DNA of 64,000 nt from Lingula anatina (GCA_051362555.1 CM120648.1:18844587-18908586), one strand, 5' to 3'; numbered from the stretch's first letter, positions 5,872 to 47,431 are shown. Notes: generated by a model not told the origin, from the letters alone. A program made the numbers and translations.

Positions 5872-6814
5872 ATGGAAGCCATATTAGGGCAATGGAGAAA
5901 GTTTAGACGAGGTGTAAATCCAAGATCAGGACAGGTGACAGTACAGACACAACCTCCATTAGCTGAACAGGAAACAAATACAACATCAGCTCCACATCCT
6001 AATGTTTTCTTTGACAAGACAGAATGTGTGCGTTCCTTCAGTCCTAAACTGGAAGATGATAGAAGAGGAATACACATAACTGGGTTAGCCATATATAAGG
6101 AACACATGTTTGTTGTGGATAATTGGAACAACAGAACAAAAGTATTCACACATGGAGGACAATTTAAGTTTGACATTAAAGTAAACAAACCATGGGATGT
6201 GGCTGTGTCACAGACTGGTCACCTGTATATAACATCAGAGGGTGACAGATGTGTCCAAGTGTACTCCACCAGAGGTCAGCAGGTGACAACCATGGGTCAG
6301 GGTCTACTGGAGTATCCACATGGTATTACACTGAACAGACAAGGTCATGTGATGGTTTGTGACAGTATAAAGAAGTCCATCTTCACATTCCATGCAGACA
6401 GTGGACAGCTCCTGAACACTATTCCAATCAGTATGTGTAGAAACCCAGAGTACATCACAGTGAACAGTGTGAATGATAACATTGTGATATCAGACATGGA
6501 CGGATACTGTGTACATGTGCTGTCACCTACTGGTGATCATCTGTACCAGTATGACGGCAGCAGAGAAGGCAGTGCACTGAGTTATCCACATGGAGTGTGC
6601 ACAGACAGCTATGGTCACATCTTCATTGCTGACTGGGATAACCACAGGATAGTGGCACTGAGTCCACAGGGACAGTTTATCAGATACATTGTCACTAAGG
6701 ATGATGGGTTGAAGTATCCCATGGCAGTAGTCATCAACCCTGCTACTGGTCAGCTGGTGGTGGGAGAGTATTACGGCAATGTTCAGACATTCCAGTACAT
6801 TGACCTGAAACAAG
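5872..6814 (+). CDS. Exon 1: NHL-repeat beta-propeller (TRIM-NHL-like), no RING/B-box
   Basis: 316-aa ORF with repeated NHL motifs (PWDVAVSQTGHLYI, YPHGITLNRQGHVMVCD, YPHGVCTDSYGHIFIADWDNHRI, YPMAVVINP). ATG context ggaATGG. Ends in donor CAAG|GTGAGT, phase 1. Confidence 0.9.
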
Positions 6815-21900: not shown

Positions 21901-24900
21901 CATATTGGTGGTGAAAGCAAAATGTGGAGTACGGTAATGGATAATAAATTTTGAACTCCGGAAAAATAAAACATAAGGCTTGGCAAAGCAGACAACTTGT
22001 GGTCAAAAATGACATTATTTCATCAAATTTGAACATCTGGAACTTCAGAGCACCTCTTATTTCAAGAATTTTGACCAAAATGACCTTTTCTTTATTTTAA
22101 TTAATTTTTTCTGTAGGAAATTTATGGCACATTATGGTAACTCCAAAATTAAAACATATAGTCCCTTATATCTCCAAAACTGGCAGAGATAGGTCCATAG
22201 TTACTATTGAAGTTGAATAGGAAGTCATATACTGGCAATCTAAATGTGACCTTGAAATTGACCTTTGACCTACTTTTCACCATGAACAGAACTTTGCATA
22301 TTTTTTTTTCCCTTTTATCTCCAAAACTGGCAGAGATAGGTCCATAGTTACTATTGAACTTGAATAGGAAGTCAGAGATAGGTCCATAGTTTCTATTGAA
22401 CTTGCATGGGAAGTCATATACTGGCAATCTAAGTGTGACCTTGAAATTGACCTTTGACCTACTTTTTATCATGAATTGAATTTTGCAAATTTTGGTTCCC
22501 TTTTATCTCCAAAACTGGCAGAGATAGGTCCATAGTTTCTATTGAACTTGCATGGAAAGTCATATACTGGCAATCTAAATGTGACCTTGAAATTGACCTT
22601 TGACCTACTTTTCACTATGAACTGAACTCTGCAAATTTCTTTCTCTTTTAACTCCAAACCTGGCAGAGATAGGTCCATAGTTACCATTAAAGTTGAATAT
22701 GAAGTCATATACTGGCAATTTACTGTGACCTTGAAATTGACCTTTGACCTACCTTACGATGAACTTAACTTTGATTGTACCATTTTAAGTTATATTTATT
22801 TTTTTGCATATTTTGAAAATTCTTGTTGATTGCATTTTTACAGCTTGTCAAGCATAAGACTGGTGGCTGTGTCCCTTCCTTTGTGTATGTGGGGGTCTAT
22901 ACGAATGCACTTGCTCCAGCTGGTGGTACAATATTCGGAGGCGGTATCGCCTCTCTGATCCTCTAGTTTCTACAGTGCCCATTCAAAATTGAAAAAGAGC
23001 TATTTTCCGTCAATTTTTCTTGAAGGGCAGGTCTACATATGACAGATTTGCTGTCTTGTTTTATCTGGGTACAAACACGACAATTTAATTTTCTGTAAAA
23101 TAAGTCTTCTTTATATGACTGAGGATTATTTTTCTTTTTGCCAAGGGATTCCACCTTCTATGTGTTTTTTGTTGGCCATTATACCTTATGTGCCTTGAAG
23201 ACTGGGCACTTGATACCAATTATACTTGATCTTATTAGATGCATTTTCGATGTAATTTATTTATTTTTATACAATATTTATAGACCAATATCCCAAAGTT
23301 ATATGTTAAAATTTTGTAAAGAAATTCCTTTATCTTAGCCACATTTTTGTTTACTTTAAGATTGAGTCATTTTCTGCTAGAATGGTGTTTGATATTCTTC
23401 TTCTCTTTATTCTACAGCCGCTCCACCTGCCTCTCCTGACAGAGCAGCAGGTAAGTAGTGCACATGTAGTAAAACAAGATTCCGTCTTTTGCTCATAATC
23501 TGCAAGAGTTGTTCTTAGCTTGTCGATTAAGTATGTGAGTTCCTGCATTCTTATTTTCATCAAACTGTATTAGTAATGTTATATTAAAATTGACTATACC
23601 TTACAATTTTAATTGATTTTAATGAATGTTAAAACATTCAGTATTTATCACCCAGTTATGTTTTGAGCTTACTCACTTGTATTCAACAGAGAGGATACAT
23701 TTTTAAGAAAAAAATGTTTTTTTTTTGGAAATTGCCGATAAACCTTCAGAAACAGATGAAAGCTTCTAATTTATTTGATAACTGTTTCACAAAGTTAATT
23801 GACACTAAATACATTCAAATTTTGTCAATGATTACAATACTTCTTTATGCTAAAAAGTTTTATTTTAACCGCACTGTTTATTGTACAGTCCTTTTCAAAG
23901 GTGAAAGTGGATCTCATACCTCTGGGGAAGAAAACATGGGTAGTATAAGAATGTTGACGATATGTCGATGTATGAACAGTCCCTGACAAATGAAATAAAT
24001 TAGATTGAAAGCATGTCTATAAAGATTAAGGTCTAGTCTCTCACAACCCCCCCCCCCCCCCCCCCCCCCCTTAAAGAAGGCACATCAGCTGAAAACTCAA
24101 TTGGGCGCTTGATACCAATTATACTTATTACATGCATTTTCAATCTAATTTATTTATTTTTATACAATATTTATACAATATACTGCGGGATTAATACGAT
24201 GATTTGGATAAATATGCACGCATTGCAATACATAACAATATGCATTATGCTAAAATCATTTAGTTTGGACATAGCTTATTGTATTCATCGCAGTGGCAGA
24301 AAGGAACCATCTAGATGATATTGACAAGGAGCTATTGGAAAAAATTGAGAAAATTGCCCGAGGGGAAGATGTGGAGCCAGAGAAACAGGTCACAATTTGG
24401 GATTTTGCAGGACAGGATGTCTACTACACCACGCACCAAACATTCCTCTCAGAGCGGATCATCTACTTGTTGGTATTCCGACTTGACCAGGACCTCGATG
24501 ATAAAATCCGTGTATACAGGGGAGAGAAGACGCTGAAAGGTATTGTTGAGCTTTATATCTTTACATGTATAAGCTACTCAGGGCCCTGATGTAAATAATG
24601 GCCTATCAACTGTGTGTAATTTCTTTATTAAAAGATCCACATTTTTAAATCTCTCTATTGCTCTTAATATATATATATATATATAACATTGAGATTTTAG
24701 TAGCGTTAATTTTAAATGGTTCCGATGAGTGTTTTGGATTGTAATATTCTAGTGATTTTAAGGATTTTAGTTATATTTACCATTGTAAGCCGCCCAATAA
24801 GAAACATTATTATTATTATTATTATTATTATATTATTGGCGCTATTTTTTAGCAATGCTGAGGAGAAAACACCGATTAATATTCATCTTTGCATTAACAT

Positions 24901-27900
24901 CAAGGCTTTGTATGTATTTTTCAGAGTTTATTATGTTTTGGTTAAACTCAATCCATATGCACACTATTGGAAAATTGAGGGAAGAAGACAAAAATGCCAT
25001 GCCATACGTCTTGATTATTGGAACTCATAAGGACATGTTATGCCCACAGGTGAAAACGCTTTTCTTTTCACAATTATTCAATTACTACCATACTTATTGT
25101 ACCACCAGCGTAGGCGCTGGCGGTACACATGGTTTTAGTCCCGACCCGTATGTTCCGCCGGTTCCGTCGGCTCCTGCGGCTCCGCCGCCAAGTCACCGTT
25201 ACCGCTTCTCCTCCTAGACGGTAAGGGCCTCCATACCCATCTCTTCGATTTAGGTCACCTATAATCTCAACATGTCCACGTAAAATTTGGGCTTTGTCGG
25301 TATTGGGGTCTAGGTGTGGCACTTATTGCAATGCACCCTTGTCCAAAAATGGCAAAATTAAATGCATATTATCTCCCCTACGGAAGGAATTATGGGAAAA
25401 ATTTCTACAGACAGCTTTCCAAAAGTCATATGTGTAGATTTCAAATATGCCCTTGAATTTGACCTTTAGAGTTTCGAGTTACGCTGTATCCAAAAGTACA
25501 TATTGGTGGTGAAAGCAAAATGTGCAGTACGGTAATGGATAATAAATTTTGAACTCCGGAAAAATAAAACATAAGGCTTGGCAAAGCAGACAACTTGTGG
25601 TCAAAAATGATATTCTTTCATCAAATTTGAACATCTGGAACTTCAGAGCACCTCCCATTCCAAGAATTTTGACCAAAATGATGTTTTCTTTATTTAAATT
25701 AATCTTTTCTGTAGGAAATTTATGGCACATTATGGTAACTCAAAAATTATAACATTTAGTCCCTTATATCTCCAAAACTGGCAGAGATAGGTCCATAGTT
25801 TCTATTGAAGTTGAATAGGAAGTCATATACTGGCAATCTACATGTGACCTTAAAATTGACCTTTGACCTACTTTTCACCATGAACTAAACTTTGCAAATT
25901 TTGATTCCCTTTTATCTCCAAAACTGGCAGAGATAGGTCCATAGTTACTATTGAACTTGAATAGGAAGTCATATACTGGCAATCTAAATGTGACCTTAAA
26001 ATTGACCTTTAACCTACTTTTCACCATGAACTGAACTTTGCAAATTTTGCTTCCCTTTTATCTCCAAAACTGGCAGAGATAGGTCCCTAGTTTCTATTGA
26101 ACTTGAATAGGAAGTCATATACTGGCAATCTACATGTGACCTTAAAATTGACCTTTGACCTACTTTTCATCATGAACTGAACTTTGCAAATTTTGCTTCC
26201 CTTTTATCTCCAAAACTGGCAGAGATAGGTCCATAGTCTCTATTGAAGTTGAATAGGAAGGCATATACTGGCAATCTAAGAGTGACCTTAAAATTGACCT
26301 TTGACATACTTTTCACCATGAACTGAATTTTGCATATTTTGCTTCCACTTTATCTCCAAAACTGGCAGAGATAGGTCCATAGTTACTATTGAACGTGAAA
26401 GGAAGTCATATACTGGCAATCTAAGTGTGACCTTTAAATTGACCTTTGACCTACTTATTATCAAGAACTGAACTCTGCTAATTTCTTTCTCTTTTAACTC
26501 CAAATCTGGCAGAGATAGGCGAATAGTTACTATTGAAGTTGAATAGGAAGTCATATACTGGCAATTTACTGTGACCTTGGAATTGACCTTTGACCTACCT
26601 TACGATGAACTTAACTTTGATTGTACCATTTTTAGTTATATATATATTTTTTGCATATTTTGAAAATTCTTGTTGATTGCATTTTTACAGCTTGTTAAGC
26701 ACAAGACTGGTGGCTGTGTTCCTTATTTTGTGTATGTGGGGGTCTATAAGAATGCGCTTGCTCCAGCTGGTGGTACAATATTCAGAGGCGATATCGCCTC
26801 TCTGATCCTCTAGTTCTATGTATAATTTGTATCCCTTCAACCATATCACGATTCCTGACGAGTGACTTAATTATTTAGAAACTTTTCACTATGTGACTAT
26901 TTGTGGATGGCATGATTTAATGTTGGGGGAAAAGGGTGTCCCTTGCCCACTGACTCCATCCTAAGTTTATAGGTTCATTGCAGCACACCCATTTTTCAAC
27001 TTGAACGAAGTGGACTATATCATATACACATATATACATGTACATACACACACCCTGGTAGATGTTTTCTTTCGCTCTGACACTTAAGCATTATTATATA
27101 GTAGTGCAAAACTACAAAAGAATCTTAACATCTTTTCATTCATAGGGCGAGGTTGAAAAGATTTTTGATAAACTCAAGAAGTGTCTCGATGACAAGCAGG
27201 TACTCAAGGACCACGTCTATCGATATTTTGCCATAAGCAACTTGGCCGAAGACGATGAGGAGTTTGCTGAAATAAAAAGAGCGATCGAAGATTTGTGCGG
27301 TTATAGCAGCGACAGTGAGGCTACCGTTCAACATCTTCCAGTGAGTTGGATTAAATTGGAAATGAATTTGGCAAAGAAGAGTGAAGAAACACCCATCATA
27401 AGTATTGAAAAATTGATGGAAATGGCGCAAAGGGTAGGACTCCCTGATGGAGAATTACAAGAAAAATTCATTCCTTACCATCACCGTCAAGGCGACATCC
27501 TACACTTTAAAATTGATGGACTGGAAAGTGTCGTCATAATAGATCCACTTTGGTTAGCAGTTGTGTTTTCTGCCATCATGACCCCGGCCAGCATTCACTC
27601 TGGATGCAGTCGCGGCCATGTCCTGAAAGATGAGCTTGAAAGAGGAGTCCTAAAAGAGGAGGTATTTGATGAGTATCTAAAAGAATTCAAGATGGCAGAA
27701 AAAAAGACTGAAATCATTCGACTTATGCTGCATTTCGACTTGATGTTAGAAATATCCCAATCAGTTGAAAACCCTCTGCCTGGACATGGAAAAAGAAGAT
27801 TCCTCGTACCCAGTATGCTGGTATCAAATAACAGTGCGAATGAGACAAATCCGCAGAAATATTTGCTTATCGCATTCCCTCATATTCTGTTTCCTACTGG

Positions 27901-30900
27901 GTTATTTCATCGTCTGACCATCCGTCTTCTAAGGAAGTATAAAGCTCAGCAATATAAAAATAACATCCCAGTTGTCGGGTTTGACAGCGCCTCCTTCCGC
28001 CTGGCTGATAAACAGTCGGTGCTGCATCTCGCCATTGAAAATAAGGCCATGAAGTTGTTTATAACTAACGCCACTGGACTCCCTCCAAGGACTCGCGTGT
28101 ATTCAGAAGCAAGAAAAACAGTTGAAAACGAGTTGACAGTCCTTCGGGATACATACTGCCCCAGGATGTATTTTGGCTACAGCATCAGGTTAACAAATGA
28201 CGGACCCAATATTCCAATAAATGCACATGACGTCCAAACAGCCGATTCCATATGTGCGTATGTAGAGAACTCTGAAGTGTCGGTAGATTTAAGGCCATAT
28301 CGCGTTTGGTTTTCTGGTAAGCAGTTTGAAATATCACGTAGTGTTGTTGTGAATAGACATTAGGCCCTATGCTATTTTAACATAGAACATGCATTCCGTG
28401 TTAATTGGTTCACAGATCTTAACATTTTAAAAGATCCCTGATTACACAGCATGTAATATCTGAAACCAGATACCATTTGAAAATTTAGGTTTGATTAGTT
28501 TTAATTTTCAAAATAATTTATCGGGAAAAATATATTAAGGATATTTCTGTTTTGTACATATATTTTTGAAAATATTGATTTTTTACACAAACACTAATGA
28601 CATACAATGTTAGTTATTTCTTATGAATACTCAATTGTATATGCAATAGACTAAAAAATGCTCAATTAGAAATTAATGGGAAAATTTATATTAATCTACC
28701 CTTCTTAAATGAACTATGTACTTGTTTGTAACATTTTTATTAGAAACAAAAGGCAAGATATCGTATTCAGATTTTACTCAAACATGTTATGAATTAGCAA
28801 CCTGTGATATCAAGTCATTAGAAACATGTCAGTGAGAGATAAAACCAAAATTAACAATCATTTCGGAATGACACTTGGATTTTGAAAGGAAAAGTATGGC
28901 GTATGATAGGACATAAAGTATTTTGATGGGGCCCTAGAGGCCAAGTGCCAATATATAATATACATAAGACCAATCTTACCATTTTAGCAGCCCCAGAGAA
29001 TCAAGACCGTCGTGCAGCCAAGTGTCCTGAAAACGAGGCAAGTTATGAGCTTTTAAATACGTTTGTGTCTTAGTACTGCGCAGCAAACACAGAACGTTAT
29101 TATAATGTTACCATATCATATGTCCAAAAACATTTTGGTAACATTATAGTAAAGTTCTGTGTTTGCTGACCATTATCCTCACTTGCACAAGTTTTAGTAA
29201 GACCATGAAATTAAATGTACTCGTATATACACAATCGTAAGAAAAATTGGATACACTTAGGCATAAATGCGCACTTTTCACTCTGTTACACTTGCTATAC
29301 GACCTCTGATATTTCTAATGATAAATTTCACATAAAGACAGTGTATGTGTGCGTTTCAGTACAAGAACGATTCCGAACCAAGAGGTCGTGCACTCATTAT
29401 CAACAACAAGACATTTTCCGTGGACTGGCTTCGAGAACGTGATGGTACCGAGGTAGATGTTGTTGCCTTGAGGAAACTATTCCGTTACCTCCATTATGAG
29501 ACAGACGTTATCAGTAACCTGACTGCAAATGTGAGTTCATTAATAAGATCATGGTGTGTTTGTAATAAAACGAACATCGTAAAAGCCAAATGGCTTTTAG
29601 GTTTCAAAGACTAACATACTTTTTGGTGATATCTAAATATATTTATCAGTGACACAAAGATGATACAATTGATACTTGAACCTTTTGGTTCAAAACAGGT
29701 GTTGTCAAACAAACTTTTCGGTCACATTTTATTATGTTTATCTATTTCACTGCAGTATATTTTTCTACTAAAATGAAGCTTTTCACTCGTTTCTGTTCAT
29801 TGCATGTATTTGTATTTATATGAGAGACGTATGGTACACTGTATAGGTATACAACATTGGTCAAAAAGGTTGTCCCACCCCTATTTCCATGTACTAATAT
29901 TTACAAATGATCACCTTACAGCTGTAAATTGTTAGAAATAGTGCTTTTTATTACGGATACCGTGTCTAACGTGATTAATGGTTTTAAAAATACAAAATAG
30001 TGGTGAAAATATACATATTTTATACCATTTAGTAAAATTTATAAGAGGTACCCCCTCAAATTGACTGTTTCACTGTGACTTCTACAGATGTAAAGAAATG
30101 TCTATAAAATTGAAAAGACGCCATCAAATGTCACCAAATTCACAGACAATTAGCATTAGGGTATGCTCGTTAAAGGTCACTTGCCTAACAGCGTGTGCGT
30201 CTACCGCGTACTGCAATTATCTCCTGTAGATGGCGCAACAAGCCTTCAACACAGGTTACAATTCTGCTTTGTGGGATATTGTCCGATTCTTCTTAAACAA
30301 GATGGGGGATTTGGCCCAGGTTTTTATGGGGTTGGTTCTCCTTTGCATTGCACACTCCAATTCATGTCACAGTTGATTAGTAAGTTTAATATCAGGGCTC
30401 AAAGATGGTGGTTCCATCCTTAGACCATTGTGTTTCTTCAACAAAAGCCAGGCGAGGGGTGTGAGCAAGTGTGTAGTCATGATAAAGCCTGAAGTTAACC
30501 CTAAAGTCAGTTCTTGAAGATGGAATGAGATATCAGCTGAGAATGCTACGTTCAGTGATCCCACAGGCACCTGAACCTGGTCATCCATCACTGGAAGGAA
30601 GTCGATTTTGATGCAGAATTAAATTATTGTACCACCAGCGTTAGCGCTGGAAGTACACATGGTTTCGGTCCCGTCCGGATCGTTCCGCCGGCTCCGCCGT
30701 CTCCGCCGGATGGCTACCGTTACCGCTTCTCCTCCTAGACGGTAAGGGCCCCCGTACCCATCTCATGGATTTAGGTCACCTATAATCTCAACTCGTTCCA
30801 CGTAAAATTTGGGCTTTGTCGGTATTGGGGTCTGGGTGTGGCACTCATTGCAATGCACCCTTGTCTAAAAATGGCAAAATTAAATGCTAATTATCTACCC

Positions 30901-33900
30901 TACGGAAGGAGTTATGGGAAAAATTTCTATAGACGGCTTTCCAAAAGTCATATGTGTAGATTTCAAATATACCCTTGGATTTGACCTTTGACCTTTACTT
31001 CAAGGTCAAATGGGCCAAAATTTTCAAAAAAATGAAATTTTTTACGAAAAAAAATTTTTTTGCCCTGTTATTCAGACACCACACAGACTTAACCAATAAT
31101 ATTATTGGAAAGTGTTACCCTTCAGGTCATCTTTCATCTCCATGAATTTGGGGTCAATCGGTGTATTTTCACGGGAGTAGCGGCCATAAGATACCGAAAC
31201 TGAAAACTGTCTCTAATTCGGGAACCGTTAATGCTAGAGACCCATTCTTTTTTGCATTTTGTAGAGCATGTAAAGCCCAACACTGCATGTGGTCTCGGTT
31301 TTTTTGTATTCCATACGGTTTTCGAGTTACGCTGTATCAAAAAGTACATATTGGTGGTGAAAGCAAAATGTGCAGTATGGTAATGGATAATAAATTTTGA
31401 ACTCTGGAAAAATAAAACATAAGGCTTGGCAAAGCAGACAACTTGTGTTCAAAAATGACATTATTTCATCAAATTTGAACTTCTGAAACTGAAACTGAAT
31501 TTTGCAAATTTTGCTTTCCTTTTATCTCCAAAACTGGCTGAGATAGGTCCGTAGTTACTATTGAACTTGAATAGGAAGTCATATACTGGCAATCTAAATG
31601 TGACCTTAAAATTGACCTTTGACCTACTTTTCACCATAAACTGAACTTTGCAAATTTTGCTTCCCTTTTATCTCAAAAACTGGCAGAGATAAGTCCATAG
31701 TTACTATTGAACTTGAATAGGAAGTCATATACTGGCAATCTAAATGTGACCTTGAAATTGACCTTTGACCTACTTTTCACCATGAACTGAACTTTGCAAA
31801 ATTTGCTTCCCTTTTATCTCCAAAACTGGCAGAGATAGGTCCATAGTTACTATTGAACTTGAATAGGAAGTCATATACTGGCAATCTAAATGTGACCTTG
31901 ACATTGACCTTTGACCTACTTTACACCATGAACTGAATTTTGCAAATTTTGCTTTCCTTTTATCTCCAAAACTGGCTGAGATAGGTCCGTAGTTACTATT
32001 GAACTTGAATAGGAAGTCATATACTGGCAATCTAAATGTGACCTTAAAATTGACCTTTGACCTACTTTTCACCATAAACTGAACTTTGCAAATTTTGCTT
32101 CCCTTTTATCTCAAAAACTGGCAGAGATAAGTCCATAGTTACTATTGAACTTGAATAGGAAGTCATATACTGGCAATCTAAATGTGACCTTGAAATTGAC
32201 CTTTGACCTACTTTTCACCATGAACTGAACTTTGCAAAATTTGCTTCCCTTTTATCTCCAAAACTGGCAGAGATAGGTCCATAGTTACTATTGAACTTGA
32301 ATAGGAAGTCATATACTGGCAATCTAAATGTGACCTTGACATTGACCTTTGACCTACTTTTCACCATGAACTGAATTTTGCAAATTTTGCTTCCCTTTTA
32401 TCTCCAAAACTGGCTGAGATAGGTCCATAGTTACTATTGAAGTTGAATAGGAAGTCCTATACTGGCAATCTAAGTGTGACCTTGAAATTGACCTTTGACC
32501 TACTTTTTATCATGAACTGAACTCTGCTAATTTCTTTCTCTTTTAACTTCAAACTTGACAGAGATAGGTCCATAGTTACTCTTGAACTTGAATAGGAAGT
32601 CATATACTGGCAATTTACTGTGACCTTGAAATTGACCCTTGACCTACCTTACGAAGAACTTAAATTTGATTGTACCATATATATTTTTTGCAATAGTTTA
32701 AAAATTCTTGTTGATTGCATTTTTACAGCTTGTCAAGCACAAAACTGGTGGCTGTGTCCCTTATTTTATGTATGTTGGGGTCTATACGAATGCGCTTGCT
32801 CCAGCTGGTGGTACAATATTCGGAGGCGGTATCGCCTCTCTGATCCTCTAGTTTCTTGTATCCCATCGATGGTCAAAAAGGGTCCATAGACATGTTATAA
32901 AATGTCTCTCGGAAGGGTGTGTGTAGGGTAATATCGCCTGAGGTGTCAGATCAATCCGCATTTGGAGAACATTCCAAGCCCATGATATTAGTACATTGTT
33001 CCTTTTGGAACAAAACGTAACAGGGGCATTTCAATGTAACATTCTCAACAGAAATCTCTATTTGCAAGAGGTGACTTCAGGGATGCTACTGGCCCCATTA
33101 TGACAAGCACTTGCTCACAGCTCTCGTCTGGCAAACGATTTGTTGCAGAAACACAGGGCTCTGAGAATGGGACAACCGTCTTTGATTCCGGATATTTATC
33201 CTACTGAGCACCTGTGGCATAAATTGGAATGTGCATTGCAGAGGAGAACCAATTCCTAAATAATCTTGACCAATTCCGCCACGCTCTTTAGGCGGAATGG
33301 GACAATATCCCACATAACAGAATTGTTGCCCATGTTGAAGGCTTGTCGCGCCATCTACAGGAGATAATTGCAGTACGCGGTAGACGCACACGCTGTTAGC
33401 ATGTGATCTTTAACGAGCGCACCCTAATGCTAATTGTGTGTGAATTTGGTGACATTTGATGGCGTCTTTTCAATTTTATAGACATTTCTTTACATCTGTA
33501 GAAATGACAGTGAAACAGTCGAATTGTGGGGTACCTCTTATAAATTTAACTAACACTCAAAGTCAATAAAACAGTGCAATTGCACTTTGAAAAATGTGCT
33601 CATATGACCAACCCCACATAATGTTCATCTCTTAGGAAAACATAGTCCCATAGCTCGGGAACACTGTCCAGAAACGGTTTCAACATTACTCTTTCCGTAT
33701 TTTAACAATCGAGCTTTAAAATATGGCAGTTTTTTTGCCCTTTTTTCACAATGTAACATTCATGACCATGTCAAGGCTGTCTCTATATAGTGGATAAATT
33801 ATTTCTTCTTTTAGCTTAACTCAAAAACTTCTTTTTTTCTTGAAGCTTGTATATTTGTTTCACAAAACAAACCTTCAAATGAGCATGACATTTTATTTTT

Positions 33901-36900
33901 TTCATTTATAACTCACAACAATAATCAATGAAAAACAATAAACACGTAAAAATAGAAATTCAAACAAAATGACTAGAATTAAATATCAATATCTTTGATG
34001 TATAATGTTTTAACTTAAAAAAAAAACAATATTTGTTTTTCATACAAATATTTAAGAGAAATAAAATGATTTGATTTCACAAATTTACATTGTCTTCTTC
34101 ATTTTTGGACGAAAAAATTAAAAGGTAGGAAAAGTAACGTATGTTTCATACATCAAGTAATAATGCCTCAATTTTACAGAATGGTTTTAGTAATTCAGTC
34201 TATCAAGTCATTGATTTGCTTTACACTTATTGTTCATATTTAGAACATTTTATATGTCAAATCACATTTTCTAACAATTCCTGGTGGTCTTATTCTTACT
34301 TTTTGAACATAAGTACACTATTTATGTTGAGTTATCCTTTTTATTATAATCACTGTGGAAGAAAAGAATAAACAAAAGTAATTTCACATTGTTAACAAAC
34401 AAACCTGAGTTACTCAGAATCTTTTAAACTAACATGGTGATGATGATGCATATAAAATCTCTCAATTATATACTAAGAAAGTCTGTAACGTATGTTACTT
34501 AATTTAGCAATGGATCTTTTCTGCATTAAATTGCCAACATGAAAATGATGTCACAGGAAAACATGACGAATTTCAATTAAACACTCCATTGCTTAATGGA
34601 GGAAACATTAAACATAACCATCATAAAAACATCATAAAACCTGTTCCTTACTCCCTTCATAAAAATCAAAGTTACGTATGTTACACATGATGAAATATGA
34701 TGCTCAATTATGCCTGAATTTACTCTCAACCAATTTCACATCCCGCTTACTGAATTTGAACATTCTTTTTGTTTTTTCCTTTTTTCCGGGCTGCATTGTA
34801 CTGTTGTCGTCGCAGACGTAAAATGCTGTTACCTGTCTCCTGAATTTGTATGCTGTTCGTTTTCTAATCTCTGCTGTGTCAATACCTTTACGTATTATAT
34901 TAGATATTAGATTTCTGTTTATCTTTGCTGACTTGCTAAAATGTGAAATACATCTGTACTTTTTTAACAGTTTTCCAGCAAAACTACCATACAATTGCAT
35001 CTTCTTTGCATTGCTTGTTGTTACATGCTTGAATTTTGAAGCCTCAGCCGTGATGACGTTTGTTAGCAGTAGTTGTTTTCTAACTCTTTTGCCCCCAAAA
35101 CCCTTTGATTTTAGAAAGAGTCTCTTTGTATTACTTCTAGGTGTGTTTGGACATGCTGGTATATTCATCTTTCTTTTTATTCTCTGCATCTTCCTTTGAA
35201 CGCATTTTACTTTCTTTTTTAGACCTTCATTTTCCTTTTTCAAAGATTTTAACTTGTCTCTGCTTTTTCTCAATGCTTTGCTTAGCCTCTTTCTGGGTCC
35301 GTTTCTACGATTCGGTAACCTTACTATGAGTCCAGTGCTATGGTCACTTTGCATTGTTTCATAACCACTGGTATCATTTGTGGACTCTACAGGGTTTGGA
35401 ACATCGATTGCAGCATTTTCAACGTTTTTCTTCTGCCTGCACTTTCTTACCCGCTCCTTTACTTCATCTCTTCTTTTTGACCTCTTTCTTTCTGTTAAAG
35501 TTCCTATTGGGACGTAATTTCTCTTTTGCCGTGCCCTCTCTTTGGCAAGGTATGTTTCCCTCTCGTTTCTTTTCTTCCTCTCCCTATAATTCTTTTGGAT
35601 TTCTGCTCTTGAAAGCGGCATCTTGACCTAAAATGGTAGAAGAAAAGATGATAGAAGAACATACATTACCAGACCAACGGGAATGTATGTTGTACAATAA
35701 CACTAAGCCATATCTTACTTTTAGCTTGTTTTTACTCATTTTCATGATAAGTATATGCAATCCATCCTTTTCTAACCAAATATCCAATATTTCAGGAAGA
35801 AAAAAAAATATCGAAAAAAATATTGTTCAATTAATATTATTCTTTATTGTATAAATTCTTCCTCATGCTTTCTCCCATTTAGTTCTTATAATTTTTCCTA
35901 CTAATGGACTAAGTTTAATTGATGAACTGACTCCCAATCTCAGATACTACAGGAATTCAAGGTTTCTTATCTTTTTATTGTTCAATATATACTAAGAAAT
36001 CTAGCTATAACTAGAGTAACATACGTTACCAAAAGTAACGTATGTTACTTTCACTGAATGCCCTACAATTCCAAGAAGAAAAACATTTCAAGCTAATGAA
36101 ATAAGTTTGTCTTGCAAGCACTTCTCCAAACTAATCTACATATGAAATGTTTCTTTTCAGAAAGATTGATATAATATTTTTGAAACTCAAATAATAGTGG
36201 TACTTACCTTAGAATATGGAAGAGTATTTCTAGGTTTTCCTTCTATGAATGCATGTTGTATTTAGTGGCTGAGAAACAGCATGGCGTCTTCAACTCATGT
36301 GACTAATCATGTGATCACAGATAAGGGGGAAAGGGTTTTACAAGGAATAATTTGAAAATGTAGGTAACGCATGTTACATCACGTATGTTACAAATCAGCT
36401 TTGACTATCAAATTGTGCCAAGATCTGAGACACTTTTTCTGACTTGTTGATATATTTTCTTCATTCATCAGCAAATACTGAAATTATGAAAGAAGCCATC
36501 GTATACTGTAAGCACTCAAATTATATGATAGGTAACGTATGTTACATCCTTAAATGACCAAACAATTTCAGGGTGAAAATCCTTTTTGTTTTCAGATAAC
36601 CTTTATTGGAGTGAAAGTTTTGATTATTCCTATATATGATAACATTTTCTATTCATCATAAATAAATGTAGCTGCTTATAAATGTATCGCACGGCAATTT
36701 ACTACTTTGTTTTAAATATAAGGTACTGAAAATTAAAAAATTGGTGACATTTTTCTACCAAATAAAAGCAAAACTTAATATGCTTCGATGGAAAAACAAA
36801 TTAGCATAAAAAGTTGGATATACATCACCTTTCAATATAATAAACAAATTACCAGGGTTTTCAGCCTTTATAACTCGTTTTATATATGTTGAAGACTAAA

Positions 36901-39900
36901 AATTAGAAAAGCGTCAGTAACGTATGTTACAAAAACGGGGGTTTAAGCAGGTACATCATGAAAATGACTTAACTAAACCCGACTTTTGCAATATGGCCAA
37001 TAAGGTCAGTAATCTCACTAAGTCATAATATAGTGAAATGCCCCATATCTTGTGTCTTTTAAACGTGGGAAGGTGACACCCCCATTTGCACTGTTTTATT
37101 GATTTTGAGTGTAAATGGTATAAAATGTGTATATTTTCACCACTATTTTGTTTTTTTTTTTTAACCATGAATCATCTTAGACACGGTATCCGTAATAAAA
37201 AGCACTATTTCTAACAGTTCACAGCTGTGAGGTGATCATTTGTAAATAAAAGTACATGGAAATGGGGGTGGGACAACCTTTTGACCAATGTTGTATACAA
37301 ACAGACATGGCGTACAATCTACAAATATACCACCATATGTCCGTCCTCGGTGGCTACTGCCTTTCACATTCTCTGTTAGCGTCAAGTATGAATTGATGCT
37401 GCCATTTTGCTTTACGCTGTCGTTGATAACCCAATTCCGTACGTACCACGTCTCTGCAGTCATTGCATGCTATTTCTTTTGAAGTACACTATGTTTTTAT
37501 GTCACTTCTTCTTTTATTTTAATGTGTAAAGGAAATGAAGGAAGAAATAGAACAAGAAAGTCAAAGAGACGATCACAAGATCTACGATTCTTTCATCTTG
37601 TTTCTACTGAGCCATGGTACCGAGGGTGCTGTTTATGGAACGGATGGCTATCCTTTACCCTTCAAATATATCAAAGCCATTTTGAATAACAGGAACTGTC
37701 TTGGCCTGTCGGGCAAACCGAAAATGATATTTATTCAGGCTTGCCAGGGAAGTAAGTTATGGAATGTATTACACAAGCTTGAATACCTGCGATGAAAATA
37801 ACATGCAAAACTATTAAACAAATGTATTGAGATATTAAACTGTATTAACAGTTTGTCTCCTTTAAATTATATTCAGCCACACGAAATGAATGACGCTTAG
37901 TATTATGTAATTGTTTAATTAGTTAATACTGATATCAATTCTAACTTATATGTAAACATGTAATTCACATAAGGGTGTATGGGGTATTTCATTTTTTTTC
38001 CATATTCGCCCAGAGATATTGGACAGTGGGACACTCCTGGACGGACAAACAGTTCAACAACCACAGCAAGCACCACCTGCAGCAAACCTTGGTGATGAGG
38101 TACCCGATGCGCCACACGAGATTCCAAAGCCATCCAATGATCCGACGATGTCCGATTTTCTCGAAGTCCATGCAACTTCACCAGGTACTTTAACCGTGTT
38201 TCTTTGTATGCCATTTTACTTAGGCCTTACAAATGTGTTTTTCATCAGAAAAAAAAATCAAAATGATAAGGTGCACGTGGTGATGCTGGGATTATGGCAT
38301 TGTGCCTCAGGTAGAAGATGGTGTGCATTTTGTGGTCTTTCGACATATTGTGGAGAACTGTATTGTACGTGTATACTTTAAAATGCGCACTACATTACTG
38401 CACCAGTAAATACTGAAAATGGTGCATGTATTTTTATACAGTATCAAATAAAATATATGTGCCAAATTTAATTAAAATGTACGTACATTTTTGCCATAAT
38501 GCTTTTAAAAATGCGTTCACGATCACTACGAAAAATGAAAGTGTGTCGAGACGTTACCTTATTGTATTTGGGAAGCTGTCAGACGATTTCTTTCGATAAA
38601 AAAGACTTGGTAGCTTATGCAAATGTTGAGAAAAAAAACATGCCGATTATGGAAAATTCATATATCAAAATTTAAACTATGTATTTCGACAGATTTTAAT
38701 TTAATTTAATTTAAAAATCGCGATAGTGTATTTCTGACATTGAATTCTCAGTGTGCACAAAGTGTAGGCATCGAAGGCATTCATGAATGTCGACACGTTT
38801 GATTCTTTGAATCAGACGCTTCATGTACTTGATAGCGCAGAGGCATGCCAGGGAAAACAGAGGAAGAAAAGCAAGTTCTGGTTTTTCTTGATTGAAGGCT
38901 TTGATTTGTTGAAGGGCAATTCCGTATAGCCTGGTTTCCAAAGATCGTGTCGCAGGCATATCAGCAAAACAAAATGCATCGCCAAGGACCCGAATGCCAT
39001 GGCAAAATGTTTTAAGTTTACTTTGTTATTTTGATACAAATAAGCTTCTGGTTGACATAGATTTGACTGGTCCTCAACTTTCCATGCTGCACTGTGCCTG
39101 ACCGAAAAAAAACCCCTTAAAATGAGTAGTGATTCAGTGTTCCAATCATGCCTGTGACGGCTAGAAATGTGACCCATATTATTTGCCTTTTGGAGATCAT
39201 TTCAGGTCGGTTCACTGTAACACTATCGGCAAATAAACTTTACTAATAGTTCCTCGATCTATGAGATTTATGAAATTTGCTTTTCCGCACTCTCAGTGAC
39301 ACTAAGTACTGTTATATTAACAAAATAAAAATAAACAGTACTGTTGCATCTACGAGTAAATAATTCGTTAAGGCTTCAGTATTTTCTGTTTCAGAATACG
39401 TATCTTGGCGACACACGGGAAAGGGAACATGGTTTGTTCAATCCATTGTCGATACATTTTATCGTGAAGCACACAAATATGACGTTTTACAAATGTTGGT
39501 GAATGTAAGTACTGAAATAACCTGAACTACATTATTTTGCATTGAAAGTGTGTTAAATTCATTAGAACACCAATCAAATATAAAACATAGCTGCCAGAAG
39601 AAGTGACATGTCGTAAGAGGTGACTTATGTAAATACAGTCCAACATGCACAGACTTTTTAAGAACCAGCGAAATGCTTTTCTGTATATTTTGACAGTTTA
39701 ATCAGAACTGTTCACTTCATGTTATATTTTATTTCACCAGGTCAATCACGCGATCTCTCAAAAGCAAACAACAATGGGCAATAAACAGGCACCAGAGATA
39801 GTTACCAGCTTACGAAAGAAAGTTTTCTTCAACATAACTCCAGGTAAGCAAAAAGAGTCACATCTTCCCGAGGTGTATTCGGCCGAATAATAAAGACCTG

Positions 39901-42604
39901 AGATCAAAAGTAAGCAAAAACAACGAACCTGGAACGTGTTAAGGTACAAACAATGCTGCCAGTCCTGCTGAAGATCTCATCCTTTTATCAAATGTCTCAA
40001 ATCTCCCACCCAGTTGCAGACCCCACCTACAAAATTGTTCTCAACTTCAATAAATCATTCCCAACTAAAGCTGGAACTTCAAGGTTATGATCTTCATAAG
40101 GTTATTTTTCTCATCAATGTTATTTCTATGTGTTTCCACCTAAATTGCACCACAACTCCCAGCATTCACGCACCTCACAGTCATTTATCAGTACTTACTC
40201 CTCCTGAAGCCATTTTGGACTACATTGAATCAGGTTATCCTTTGGGTAGATTGCTGGCACAATTTAGTCTCCTTCTTACAGATTTCAAATATTCAATGTT
40301 ACATGTTGTCCCTAAATCTGATCTTCACAAAACTCATGTAATTTACGATCTTTTTTTTTTTAATCCCAACCTGGTCTCGGTTGATTCTAACATTCCAAGA
40401 GAGTTCTCTGTGGCACAGTACGACTTCATTGATGCTGTTATCGCACATGTCCAACATTTTGTTCGTGGTGCTCTTTTAGGTATATCTTATATTCAAGATG
40501 TTTTCCACATTTTACCGATTATCAACTGCGTCCATCCCTTAAAGGCCCAGTGGGTCACCTGTGACCCACACATTTGACACGTCCCCACCCACACCACACA
40601 AAATGAATCCACTTCATTTTGCCATTTCCTTTTCCTTATGTACTAGTTTATCCTTGTTGACCAATTAGAAACTAGATCATTATCCTTCACTTCACTCAAA
40701 TATGTCTGCCTCCATAAGAAGGAGTTAATGCTATTGCCTAGTGGGTTTTTATGTGTCTGTATTGTCATCTCAAGGTAAATAATAATTTCAATATTCTGCC
40801 TTTTCATTATAAATACAATAGTCTTAAACCACACAGAGATGTTTTATACAGTTGTTAGCTACGCTTCCAGGTTTAAATTTATTTTTTATGTTGTTATTGT
40901 AATAAAAAGAGGTTTGTGATATCTTGAAACTTAGTCATTTGTTTACCTCTAAAGCCCAGTGGGTCACCGGTGGAACATAACCAAAAACTAGGTCAATGTT
41001 GCCCAAAACATTTTTTTCAACATTTATTGATAAATATGCTTATTACAATCCTATTACCTAGGTATTAAACTTTTCATGCAAGAAAAACATGTCTTGGGCC
41101 TTTAAGGGTTTTTCCTGGAATGATCTGTTTTATTATGAGAAATGTTTGCCAATAGGTGCAAGTTGTTCGTGCCAGATTTTTTAATCTATGAATAAAGCTA
41201 TGCAATGGATTATGTTGGAGAGATTTCATTATTCGGCCATGTCCCGTATACTAGATGATATCTGTTTCATTGGACCTCAAAATTCCAAGAAGTGTCAGGT
41301 TGATTTTTTTTGTGTTATGCACATGGATAAACGTTTCCATTAACGCAGTAAAAACCTTTACTCTGACCACTTGTTTAACGTAAACAACCTTTACTCTGAC
41401 CACTTTTGTTTATTTTATCTCATCGAAATAGATTCAATACAAATGAAACCTTGGATAGGCTTTTAGGGTTTAATCTGAAATAAAATTTCAGGCATTGGTC
41501 AAACGTGTCTAATTTGGTTCAGTTTTGTTGTGGGATATGGTTGATTGGGCGAGTAATGACCCACCCACTTATTGTCCATGTGGTTCAAGTATGGTGATTT
41601 TAATGACCAAGGTAACTACTTACTCCCTTGTTTCATTAAGTTATCTGCTATTCCAGGTTCTCTGTTCGAACCAGTAATCTCATTGTGCAACCTTAATTTA
41701 CTCCTAATGTGCCCCCTAGTCATGCGATTCCCAGATTATAACTTACTTTGATGTGTTTAGGATCTTATTATTTTTTTACTATTAAAAATGATAATTTTCA
41801 GTCATATGCACTTTACCTCATTTGCCTTTGAGCAAAAACAGAGCTGTGTTGTGCTAATGATCATTTGGCTACATAAAACAGCAATTTAGATAATTGTGTT
41901 TATGTAGGGAATGTCTACATCAGTGAGATTTAAGTCATCCAGCTTTTTAGCTGCTTGATATTTACCCGCATTGTTACGTAGTGCAGTTTAAGCAGCTACA
42001 CTGGAAGATTACTTGCTTCGTTATTTCATTTTTATTTGGACACATTCCACGTTCCCCCATCACCCGCCTTAGTCCTTGTGTTTTTCTCTATTTTTTTCTT
42101 TTTTTTTTACTAACCAGAGTCTCTATTTCTGCGCCAATAACTATTGTGGTTTCATATATATTTTATTCTGAATTTATCTTGGTTGCACCCATTAAACTAT
42201 ATTATTATTATTTATATTATAACATTTATATAGCATGGGGTGTATGATAATCCCCCATTTTTGTAAGTTTATATCTCATTATTCTTCGTCATTAATAAAT
42301 GACAGTTTTCAGTCATATGGACTTTATGCTATGTACCTTTGAGCAAAAAGCTTAGCTTTGTTGTGTTGGTGTGATTATTTGGCTACATGAATAGAATATT
42401 TCATCCACAGAGGTGTCTCTTGGCTGTAAGATATATGAAATAATATTCAAATAAATCTGAACTGAAAAAAATTAATTAATTCTATAAAACGCAATATTTT
42501 GAAGAAACATGTTGTTGTAAAGAACAATTTTCTTGCTGCTGTCATATCACCTGGTAATTGTTTGTGTTCTAGGTGAAGAAGAGTCAGTCCAAGACCAAAA
42601 CTAA
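5872..42604 (+). CDS. Multi-exon gene model: NHL-repeat / Roc GTPase / COR / caspase (peptidase C14) fusion protein, ~1270 aa
   Basis: Exons 5872-6814, 16362-16592, 17042-17197, 17412-17462, 23418-23450, 24294-24539, 24925-25049, 27146-28316, 28991-29037, 29360-29530, 37532-37751, 38014-38184, 39395-39504, 39741-39843, 42573-42604 (or read-through of the 39741 exon to TAA at 39888-39890). All have AG acceptors and GT donors (one GC), phases are compatible and there are no internal stops. Exon sum is 3810 nt. Confidence 0.8.
10439..11250. repeat. ~160-bp tandem repeat, ~5 copies
   Basis: TAAACACGATAAGTGAAAA...GTTCGAAAATCAGCATGAT...GCAACACCG recurs at ~10439, 10600, 10761, 10921, 11082. Confidence 0.9.
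11784..13020. repeat. ~337-bp tandem repeat, ~3.5 copies, alternating variants
   Basis: GGCATTT..A...GACTT anchors at 11784, 12121, 12459, 12796. Confidence 0.8.
13943..14178 (+). mobile_element. Short HINE/DINE-like element
   Basis: 5' CTCTGCCAAGG / 3' CCTTGACAGAGG subterminal inverted repeat, GTTTGTCTGT tract, 3' hairpin GCACT..AGTGC and CTAG end. Absent from the paralogous region at 17570-18930. Confidence 0.6.
15030..15950 (+). mobile_element. Diverged partial copy of the HINE family at 19513-22966
   Basis: GTACCACCAGC head, CTCTTGGATTTAGGTCAC, and a TGACCTTGAAATTGACCTTTGACC unit. Confidence 0.7.
16362..16592 (+). CDS. Exon 2: Roc GTPase P-loop (G1) and switch I
   Basis: RVAIVGPYGVGKT..L...EY..EDANTTGVNI. 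Acceptor ccag at 16358-61, donor AG|GTAAGC. Phase 1-1. Confidence 0.88.
17042..17197 (+). CDS. Exon 3: acidic insert within Roc
   Basis: ttctcag|AT GAT CCA... gives DDPKDQFAQNMAIGVQNSDTFCEPDLTVLDQTPLEESPPDSEENINNMLTNR, donor G|GTATTG. 156 nt, phase 1-1. Confidence 0.7.
17412..17462 (+). CDS. Exon 4: 51-nt microexon (AASPDDSESPASPDKAA)
   Basis: Polypyrimidine tract and ctacag acceptor, strong donor CAG|GTAAGT, phase 1-1. Confidence 0.7.
19513..22966 (+). mobile_element. Helentron/HINE-type element with 146-bp central satellite (copy A)
   Basis: Subterminal IR TTGTACCACCAGC...GCTGGTGGTACAA, 5' hairpin CCAGCGTTAGCGCTGG, (CCGCCGGCT)n tract, 3' hairpin GAGGCGGTATCGCCTC, CTAG end before TT. 146-bp units from 20524. 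Confidence 0.85.
23418..23450 (+). CDS. Exon 5: 33-nt microexon (AAPPASPDRAA), duplicate of exon 4
   Basis: Same acceptor and donor context as 17412-17462 with an in-frame 18-nt deletion. Phase 1-1. Confidence 0.6.
24294..24539 (+). CDS. Exon 6: Roc G3/switch II
   Basis: [32 protein letters not shown], the Roc signature of LRRK/MFHAS1/Dictyostelium Roco type. cag acceptor, G|GTATTG donor. Confidence 0.93.
24925..25049 (+). CDS. Exon 7: Roc G4
   Basis: EFIMFWLNSIH...PYVLIIGTHKD. tttttcag acceptor, CAG|GTGAAA donor, phase 1-0. Confidence 0.9.
25095..26813 (+). mobile_element. Same HINE family (copy B)
   Basis: Same termini as copy A, with fewer 146-bp units and an internal deletion. Confidence 0.85.
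27146..28316 (+). CDS. Exon 8: Roc G5 plus COR domain
   Basis: YFAISN, then LPVSWIKLE, YHHRQGDILHF, VIIDPLWL, LMLHFDLML, FLVPSML, FPTGLFHRLTIRLL (COR motifs). catag acceptor, G|GTAAGC donor. Confidence 0.9.
28991..29037 (+). CDS. Exon 9: COR-caspase linker ending in a GC donor
   Basis: tagcag|CC CCA GAG AAT... gives APENQDRRAAKCPENE, then GAG|GCAAGT. Converts phase 1 to phase 0, exactly as needed to join COR to the caspase exon. Confidence 0.7.
29081..29168. mobile_element. ~90-bp palindromic MITE remnant
   Basis: CAGCAAACACAGAAC ... GTTCTGTGTTTGCTG inverted repeat. Confidence 0.55.
29360..29530 (+). CDS. Exon 10: caspase large subunit N-terminal part
   Basis: YKNDSEPRGRALIINNKTF...RDGTEVDVVALRKLFRYLHYE...NLTA. 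tttcag acceptor, AAT|GTGAGT donor. Confidence 0.92.
30625..32851 (+). mobile_element. Same HINE family (copy C), nested in the foldback
   Basis: Same termini and 146-bp array as copies A and B. Confidence 0.85.
33554..37111 (-). mobile_element. DNA transposon with CACTC termini and 3-bp TAA target duplication (CMC-like termini), internally deleted
   Basis: TIR CACTCAAAGTCAATAAAACAGTGCAA / TTGCACTGTTTTATTGATTTTGAGTG with TAA on both sides. The empty site can be reconstructed from the foldback's other arm. Confidence 0.8.
34704..35621 (-). CDS. Truncated N-terminal part of a DNA-transposon protein (K/R-rich)
   Basis: 305-aa ORF with basic coiled coils and a V..FY..DDNS...PGKK motif that I associate with invertebrate transposase N-termini. 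No catalytic region follows. Lies within the 33554-37111 TIRs. Confidence 0.55.
   Translation of the reverse strand: MPLSRAEIQKNYRERKKRNERETYLAKERARQKRNYVPIGTLTERKRSKRRDEVKERVRKCRQKKNVENAAIDVPNPVESTNDTSGYETMQSDHSTGLIVRLPNRRNGPRKRLSKALRKSRDKLKSLKKENEGLKKKVKCVQRKMQRIKRKMNIPACPNTPRSNTKRLFLKSKGFGGKRVRKQLLLTNVITAEASKFKHVTTSNAKKMQLYGSFAGKLLKKYRCISHFSKSAKINRNLISNIIRKGIDTAEIRKRTAYKFRRQVTAFYVCDDNSTMQPGKKEKTKRMFKFSKRDVKLVESKFRHN
37532..37751 (+). CDS. Exon 11: caspase catalytic His/Cys
   Basis: FLLSHGTEGAVYGTDG...NCLGLSGKPKMIFIQACQG. Donor A|GTAAGT. Confidence 0.95.
38014..38184 (+). CDS. Exon 12: caspase inter-subunit linker and start of small subunit
   Basis: KILDSG...GDEVPDA...PTMSDFLEVHATSP. Phase 1-1. 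Confidence 0.88.
39395..39504 (+). CDS. Exon 13: caspase small subunit
   Basis: EYVSWRHTGKGTWFVQSIVDTFYREAHKYDVLQMLVN. tttcag acceptor, AAT|GTAAGT donor. Not in the ORF track. Confidence 0.92.
39741..39843 (+). CDS. Exon 14: caspase small-subunit C-terminus
   Basis: VNHAISQKQTTMGNKQAPEIVTSLRKKVFF (KQ.P...S.LRK..FF motif). Donor CAG|GTAAGC, or read-through to a stop at 39890. Confidence 0.9.
39950..41800 (+). mobile_element. Degenerate DIRS/Ngaro-type retrotransposon (RT relic)
   Basis: GRL..QF, VVPKSD, SVDSNIPRE...QY..ID, GALL...IQDVFHILPI, then after an insertion GFSW...YEKCLPIGAS.SCQIF, ILDDICFIG, IEIDS. Stops and frameshifts. Confidence 0.7.
40536..41108. mobile_element. MITE inserted into the DIRS-like RT (piggyBac-like CCC..GGG or Kolobok-like TTAA-AGG termini)
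   Basis: CCCTTAAAGGCCCA ... TGGGCCTTTAAGGG with an internal palindrome GTGGGTCACCTGTGACCCAC. It splits the RT reading. Confidence 0.7.
42573..42604 (+). CDS. Possible terminal exon (GEEESVQDQN*)
   Basis: tttgtgttctag acceptor, phase 1 matching the 39843 donor. Short, with no homology support. Confidence 0.35.
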
Positions 42605-47134: not shown

Positions 47135-47431
47135 ATTTTTATTTTCATTATTGTTATTATTTCAGGTTTACAAATGTAGTTGCAACGCCAGTATTATGTA
47201 AAGTGCATTCGATTGTAACGAGTAAACACAGGTGTATAGTACGTAATTGCCTCTAGCAGTGACACTTGGTCATCTGCCTGATTTGCATGTAAATAAACGC
47301 CGAGTGCCTTGTCGGCACTTGAGGTATATGATTTGGACACTAAAGACGTGTTTGTTTGCTTCATGTCATGGCGTGGTGGCAGCGGTATTTTTAAAATTTC
47401 GTAACTACGTACGTCAGAGATACATTTGAAA

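What the first reader, a model, noticed from the sequence alone, without database searches (positions are those of the whole stretch)
29360..39843. Caspase module looks catalytically competent and initiator-like, with no CARD/DED
Seen: catalytic His (LSHG) and Cys (QACQG), both S1-pocket Arg equivalents (RDGT, SWR), and an inter-subunit linker with DEVPD/A, a plausible autocleavage site. The LLSHGTEGAVYGTDG and KPKMIFIQAC segments resemble caspase-2, while QACQG is the caspase-8/10 pentapeptide. COR sits where a death-fold prodomain normally would, only ~16 aa upstream.
Basis: partly seen in the sequence, partly recalled or inferred. Interest (0 to 1): 0.7.

Follow-up and report, generated by a model that had tools for sequence, protein, structure and literature searches.

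The report
GTPase-switched caspase in a brachiopod
This expressed lamp-shell (Lingula-type) gene joins an intact cell-death protease directly to an LRRK2-type GTP switch, where other caspases carry a death-fold adaptor, so the switch likely turns the protease on, and sister genes carry the same switch with other effectors, which points to a likely mix-and-match immune family.

Summary
The caspase exons carry Arg1042, His1100, Gln1141, Cys1143 and Arg1208. RNA reads splice COR to a 50-bp linker exon and then, through a GC-AG intron, into the caspase. No CARD or DED was found in the window. The model is NHL-Roc-COR-caspase, 1283 aa, 96% identical to Lingula anatina XP_013381226.2, which a 2024 survey listed without a prodomain.

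The subtype labels are wrong. It is a lophotrochozoan caspase-Y: about 86% identical to Casp.Y1, which has a CARD on the same linker exon. EVPD/A is one of two likely cleavage sites; TLLD/G is the other.

Sister ROCO genes end in a HEPN domain, a RHIM-like tail or a different caspase, and a clean crossover inside COR marks an effector swap. Roc-COR-caspases also occur in Owenia (noted in print) and amphioxus. Activity and dimer-driven activation are inferred, not tested.

The parts
5872..6814 (+). NHL-repeat beta-propeller exon, predicted first coding exon and likely sensor
   Evidence: Pfam NHL E 1e-20; phase-1 donor fits the Roc exon; the splice to Roc was not tested with RNA
16362..16592 (+). 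Roc exon with the G1 P-loop (GPYGVGKT) and G2 Thr
   Evidence: Pfam Roc E 6e-6; 69% to P0005
17042..23939 (+). Four small phase-1 exons (17042-17197, 17412-17462, 23418-23450, 23901-23939) giving a low-complexity insert in Roc; predicted
   Evidence: Splice signals and open frame; first exon 90% to P0012; the other three not checked with RNA
24294..25049 (+). Roc exons with G3 (DFAGQ; 24294-24539) and G4 (THKD; 24925-25049)
   Evidence: Pfam Roc E 2e-8; 25049>27146 seen as loose ends in 41 and 15 reads
27146..28316 (+). Single exon with Roc G5 and the whole COR; holds the crossover between paralog types (between residues 793 and 911)
   Evidence: Pfam COR-A E 2e-21; RNA depth; site patterns 33 then 7 with no interleaving
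28988..29037 (+). 50-bp linker exon with a GC donor, shared with the CARD caspase Casp.Y1
   Evidence: RNA joints on both sides; present in XP_013381226.2 and XP_013403374.2
29360..29530 (+). Caspase exon 1 (p20 start, S1 Arg1042)
   Evidence: Pfam C14 E 8e-10; RNA
37532..37751 (+). Caspase exon 2 (His1100, Gln1141, Cys1143)
   Evidence: Pfam C14 E 2e-18; joints
38014..38184 (+). Inter-subunit linker exon with candidate sites TLLD1155/G (38040-42) and EVPD1177/A (38106-08)
   Evidence: Joints; low pLDDT loop in the model; alignments
39395..39504 (+). Caspase p10 exon (SWR, Arg1208)
   Evidence: Pfam C14 E 8e-6; joints
39741..39843 (+). Caspase p10 end with the dimer strand EIVTS; read-through to a stop near 39890 gives a minor C-terminus
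   Evidence: Joints 39843>42573 and 39909>42573; P0010 has the read-through end
42573..42604 (+).
   Evidence: 15, 18 and 44 reads; matches the end of XP_013381226.2

Best explanation
The gene is a spliced, expressed Roc-COR-caspase-Y fusion with intact catalytic residues, predicted to start with an NHL propeller, and it likely works as a one-chain death or immune switch in which nucleotide-controlled pairing of Roc-COR would bring two caspase domains together and activate them. Shown: the COR-linker-caspase splice, the residues, the caspase-Y kinship, and paralogs with other effectors. Inferred: a ligand sensed by NHL shifts the Roc GTP/GDP state; COR-driven dimers or oligomers replace the CARD-adaptor platform; the caspase dimer cuts itself at TLLD/G and/or EVPD/A and then cuts Asp substrates. 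Whether the GTP or the GDP state is 'on' is open.
For: RNA joints. Full catalytic and S1 set, untouched by the 15 exonic RNA variants checked. Caspase fold with pLDDT about 85-95 in the p20 core and Foldseek TM 0.79-0.89 to solved caspases. Roc G1-G5 motifs present. CARD and COR alternate on the same linker exon (Casp.Y1, 37 differences in 275 aa counted by eye). COR-mediated dimers and a nucleotide-dependent monomer-dimer cycle are reported for C. tepidum Roco (PMC6320773). Initiator caspases are activated by induced homodimerisation (PMC5123071). Roc-COR-caspase recurs in Lingula (P0002, P0006, P0007, P0057), Owenia (P0058) and Branchiostoma (P0175), with the amphioxus caspase in another clade. 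Bacterial LRR-AP-GTPase-COR proteins carry caspase among variable effectors (PMC8195603).
Against: No activity data. The dimer strand EIVTS is close to the strong caspase-3 type, so the caspase may pair without help. In C. tepidum Roco GTP causes monomers, and human DAPK1 dimerises through Roc and kinase rather than COR. NHL-to-Roc splicing is untested, and no read spans Roc to caspase. Reads were 92-99% alike and may come from the near-identical paralogs or alleles. Expression was seen in runs of one study only (2 of 4 runs). A paralog has Cys replaced by Asp (P0011), so copies in this family do decay.
Confidence: 0.58

Rival explanations
1. Roc-COR is a brake or address tag: the caspase is a ready-made dimer of executioner type, held latent or localised by Roc-COR and switched on when another caspase cuts its linker.
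For: Dimer strand EIVTS aligns with caspase-3 CIVSM, a motif that makes caspase-9 a constitutive dimer. TLLD/G aligns with the caspase-3 maturation site. Deleting Roc makes DAPK1 more active.
Against: It groups with CARD-bearing caspase-Y, not with short-prodomain rows. Casp.Y1 uses nearly the same strand behind a CARD. One RefSeq copy has Arg after TLLD.
Confidence: 0.22
2. The protein is a scaffold or decoy: it binds caspases or pathogen inhibitors, and its own proteolysis matters little.
For: A Cys-to-Asp copy lies next to a HEPN ROCO gene (P0011, P0012). Two other Lingula Roc-COR caspases have Ser for the S1 Gln.
Against: This copy and both RefSeq copies keep every catalytic and S1 residue while differing at 3-5% of caspase sites.
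Confidence: 0.1
3. The fusion is a recent, functionless by-product of exon shuffling in a repeat-rich paralog cluster.
For: Mosaic paralogs, partial copies and transposon-filled introns.
Against: Spliced at every tested junction, with an open frame. The architecture is shared with Owenia within one caspase clade (SH-aLRT 90) and occurs separately in amphioxus.
Confidence: 0.1

Closest known systems
Owenia fusiformis ROC-prodomain caspase CAH1787638.1, caspase-Y clade (Horkan et al. 2024, PMC11463336)
   Same: Roc GTPase and COR ahead of a caspase-Y domain; the related Owenia protein CAH1786849.1 has QACQG and a DYVSWR-type motif
   Different: Reported as one unusual gene, with no mechanism, COR or NHL discussed in the parts read. 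The same paper lists the Lingula counterpart XP_013381226.2 with an empty prodomain cell.
Lingula anatina Casp.Y1 (XP_013403374.2, CARD caspase-Y)
   Same: Same linker exon and about 86% identical caspase (by eye)
   Different: CARD in place of Roc-COR; it is a RefSeq model not checked here
Bacterial LRR-AP-GTPase(Roc)-COR proteins with variable effectors (Kaur et al. 2021, PMC8195603)
   Same: Repeat sensor, Roc-COR, and a swappable C-terminal effector that can be a caspase; several paralogs per genome
   Different: Here an animal, intron-rich gene with a true metazoan caspase-Y and a predicted NHL sensor; effectors are swapped by crossover in COR and phase-1 exon shuffling
ROCO proteins (C. 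tepidum Roco, LRRK2, DAPK1) and mollusc Roc-COR-Death/CARD/HEPN/TIR proteins
   Same: Roc-COR core; mollusc clusters with HEPN, Death or CARD are the nearest structural look-alikes; TIR-ROCO in Aplysia (PMC9334734)
   Different: The effector is the protease itself, not a kinase or an adaptor that must recruit one
Initiator caspase-9 on the apoptosome
   Same: Long prodomain, long linker with a P-D/A site
   Different: No CARD; the oligomerising NTPase is in the same chain and is a GTPase; separate clade

Membership tests
Caspases (peptidase C14A) | His-Cys dyad in SHG and QACxG | tested here: met
   His1100, Cys1143
Caspases (peptidase C14A) | S1 pocket Arg, Gln, Arg for Asp specificity (roles recalled from textbook knowledge) | tested here: met
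   Arg1042, Gln1141, Arg1208 align with caspase-3
Caspases (peptidase C14A) | p20/p10 caspase fold | tested here: met
   AlphaFold model of P0006 and Foldseek
Caspases (peptidase C14A) | Cleaves after Asp | not testable with these tools
   Needs an assay
Classical initiator caspases | CARD or DED prodomain | tested here: not met
   No profile hit; listed joints into 28988 and 29360 come from COR and the linker exon
Classical initiator caspases | Monomeric zymogen activated by induced dimerisation | not testable with these tools
   Dimer strand looks caspase-3-like; needs biochemistry
Caspase-8/10 (DED caspases) | Tandem DED and membership of the DED clade | tested here: not met
   No DED; outside the DED clade at 98/95; AU p 0.06 does not formally reject it
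Caspase-2 | CARD plus caspase-2 clade | tested here: inconclusive
   No CARD; no named caspase-2 in my trees; PMC11463336 reports caspase-2 lost in Lingula
Caspase-Y (lophotrochozoan) | Groups with Lingula Casp.Y sequences | tested here: met
   About 86% to Casp.Y1; 12-row group with Casp.Y6 at SH-aLRT 84, inside a 29-row group at 92
ROCO proteins | Roc with G1-G5 motifs followed directly by COR | tested here: met
   Pfam Roc and COR-A; motifs; Roc-to-COR splice
ROCO proteins | GTP binding, hydrolysis and dimer cycle | not testable with these tools
   Needs biochemistry

The most novel reading that the evidence does not exclude
Lingula runs a polymorphic, NLR-analogous immune system on a Roc-COR GTPase: variable N-terminal modules (NHL, Bcl-2-like, HEPN) and variable effectors (two caspase-Y types, HEPN RNase, RHIM) are re-assorted by crossover inside COR and by phase-1 exon shuffling, and this gene is a single-chain, GTP-gated apoptosome, the animal counterpart of bacterial Roc-COR effector systems.
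Probability: 0.4. Interest if true: 0.82.

Novelty: new variant of a known kind. Interest (0 to 1): 0.62.

Why it matters
Known animal initiator caspases are switched on by death-fold adaptors on ATPase or receptor platforms. A caspase wired directly to a Roc-COR GTPase would be a different activation route. It would also give a simple protease read-out for the disputed question of how nucleotide state and dimerisation of LRRK2-type Roc-COR modules control an effector. It corrects the reading of a Lingula caspase listed without a prodomain, and it shows effector swapping in an animal ROCO family.

Tried and rejected
No whole genome is held for this window, so copy number and neighbours could not be checked. 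No RNA holder was listed by index; runs came by species label. COR homodimer prediction gave no verdict (score 0.00, alignment not used); it is not used as evidence. The Atlas search with P0006 gave no usable hit; with P0002 none of the rows shown was a Roc-COR plus C14 cluster, which shows nothing about absence. A direct COR-to-29360 splice was rejected: the phases differ and reads use the linker exon. A HEPN, CARD or DED exon in the window was not found. Monophyly of the Lingula Roc-COR caspases tested was neither shown nor rejected (p 0.19), whereas window plus P0002 was rejected (p 4e-5). One search used an overwritten file and is void. Ten literature searches found no paper describing the Lingula Roc-COR-caspase; the library lacks most subscription papers, including a recalled 2018 survey of Lingula immunity that I could not check, and the figures of PMC11463336 are not visible.

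Full report
Gene structure. The window is intron-rich animal DNA. Sixteen + strand exons give an open 1283-aa frame: NHL repeats, Roc, COR, a 17-residue linker and a caspase. Pfam finds NHL, Roc, COR-A and C14 on single exons. The COR exon ends in phase 1 and caspase exon 1 starts in phase 0, so a bridging exon is needed; the candidates all use a GC donor at 29037. RNA confirms this: 28316>28988 in 13 and 4 reads, and 29037>29360 in 35 and 19 reads, in runs X4 and X5. Runs X1 and X7 had almost no exon coverage. Loose ends join 25049 to 27146 (41, 15 reads) and 29530 to 37532 (25, 17 reads). All later introns and a last exon at 42573-42604 are seen in 3 of 3 runs of that study. Reads were 92-99% alike and may include close paralogs.

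Identity. Residues 681-1283 are 96% and 95% identical to Lingula anatina XP_013381226.2 and XP_013405061.1, which begin inside COR. The window is therefore Lingula anatina or a close relative (inference). Horkan et al. 2024 (PMC11463336; passages, section 5 part 1, supplement parts 1 and 13 and search rows read; figures not seen) list XP_013381226.2 with an empty prodomain cell, and report one Owenia caspase with a ROC prodomain inside caspase-Y.

Catalytic anatomy. Arg1042, His1100, Gln1141, Cys1143 and Arg1208 are present and align with caspase-3; their roles are textbook knowledge. None of the 15 exonic RNA variants that I checked, out of the best-supported rows shown, alters them. The AlphaFold model of the RefSeq copy has a confident caspase core and a disordered linker and matches solved caspases at TM 0.79-0.89. 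The linker has five Asp. TLLD1155/G lies at Cys+12, aligned with caspase-3 IETD/S. EVPD1177/A resembles caspase-9 PEPD315/A (PMC5123071, passages) and the ERPD/A and ERTD/S of other Lingula CARD caspases. Both are plausible; neither is shown. The dimer strand EIVTS aligns with caspase-3 CIVSM rather than the weak caspase-9 GCFNF, a point against a simple monomeric initiator.

Which caspase. In a 33-row tree the domain lies outside the DED clade (98/95). In a 136-row tree it sits in a 9-row group (SH-aLRT 90) holding six Roc-COR caspases of Lingula and Owenia (the window included), the Lingula PARP caspase and a caspase-RIG-I fusion. That group is sister to Lingula CARD caspases including Casp.Y6. 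Rows dropped before that tree: near-duplicates, multi-domain and partial caspases. An AU test on 16 rows did not reject a DED grouping (p 0.06), so the tree alone is moderate. The stronger evidence is Casp.Y1 (XP_013403374.2): a CARD followed by the same linker exon and a caspase with 37 differences in 275 residues (by eye). QACQG is common in this group and is not diagnostic of caspase-8/10. The direction of the CARD-COR exchange is open; Roc-COR being the commonest state in the 9-row group suggests that the fusion is old and Casp.Y1 regained a CARD.

No death fold. CARD, DED and HEPN profiles found nothing under E 0.3 in six frames, while a control caspase profile found four exons. The listed joints into the linker and caspase exons come only from COR ends; 14 loose-end rows were not shown.

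Effector swapping. Lingula paralogs diverge right after the COR exon end and continue as caspase (P0002, P0007, P0057), HEPN_DZIP3 (P0001, P0003) or a weak RHIM (P0004, E 0.007); P0005 has HEPN in front of Roc. The window's Roc is 97% identical to the HEPN gene P0001 but its COR-B only 68%. Among four paralogs, 33 informative sites pair window with P0001, then 7 pair window with the caspase gene P0002, with no interleaving (2 sites of the third pattern; 0 of 300 permutations as extreme). That places a crossover between residues 793 and 911. Yet the caspases of window and P0002 are only 42% identical and are rejected as sisters (p 4e-5). RNA also shows a second, HEPN-type COR end spliced to the same linker exon (11 and 7 reads). 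These comparisons rest on RefSeq models.

Range. Of 54 of the 150 best representative hits scanned with Pfam, four further proteins have Roc, COR-A and C14: Lingula LOC106171421, Owenia CAH1786849.1, Branchiostoma floridae LOC118405396 and unnamed P0119; P0178 has COR-B, C14 and GT4. A COR profile over all held proteins found the same four. The amphioxus caspase falls in another clade, so the fusion likely arose more than once. Bacteria have LRR-Roc-COR proteins with caspase among at least 24 effectors (PMC8195603, section 15).

Mechanism. I commit to induced proximity driven by Roc-COR (0.58). C. tepidum Roco dimerises through COR and cycles between monomer and dimer with nucleotide (PMC6320773, passages), and initiator caspases are activated by dimerisation. 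A 17-residue linker would keep the two caspases close. All of this is inference. The brake or executioner model (0.22), the decoy (0.1) and the by-product (0.1) are the rivals.

Verdict. A real, expressed and apparently intact GTPase-caspase fusion. The architecture has one brief mention in print for an annelid and a bacterial precedent; its presence as a shuffled family in Lingula was not found in ten searches of the held library. Other papers seen: PMC4104024 and PMC9334734 (passages), PMC6284101 (outline only). New variant of a known kind; interest 0.62.

Noticed in passing
P0058 (Owenia CAH1786849.1) and P0057 (Lingula LOC106171421): Bcl-2-Roc-COR-caspase in one chain: Bcl-2 E 5e-23 in Owenia, a weak Bcl-2 match (E 0.003) at the same place in Lingula. 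A Bcl-2 fold fused to a GTPase-gated caspase in two phyla deserves its own look.
   Followed up: partly
P0063 (Lingula XP_013415815.1): A caspase of the same 9-row clade fused to the front of a RIG-I-like helicase.
   Followed up: no
P0097 (Lingula LOC106171938): Another N-terminal region with no Pfam family is joined to a partial caspase 63% identical to this one.
   Followed up: no
P0011, P0012 (beside LOC106168738): A partial caspase copy with Cys replaced by Asp lies on the same contig as a Roc-COR-HEPN gene and was fused to it in an older model.
   Followed up: partly
window 29864-37282: A 7.4-kb element with 142-nt inverted ends inside the first caspase intron, holding a 307-aa basic ORF (34704-35627, - strand, no clear Pfam family) and a nested element with about 390-nt inverted arms.
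   Followed up: partly
window 20514-22770, 25760-26619, 31493-32647: Four arrays of one 146-bp unit inside copies of an intronic mobile element.
   Followed up: no
window 47405-52281: Gypsy-like retrotransposon with open gag-like and pol frames (protease, RT, RNase H, integrase zinc finger).
   Followed up: no
window 57152-60626: A 39-bp minisatellite of 89 copies that is open on both strands over about 1200 codons; probably an artefact of a stop-free unit.
   Followed up: no
window 39396: The window has Glu1203 where most reads (85 of 85, 17 of 17, 25 of 31) and both RefSeq copies have Asp, the caspase-Y-type residue before VSWR.
   Followed up: yes
window 42719-43700, 46450-46830, 52564-52995: Fragments of Tc1-like and DDE (Harbinger-type) transposases (Pfam on 42719-43228 and 52564-52992; the 46450 piece read by eye).
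   Followed up: no
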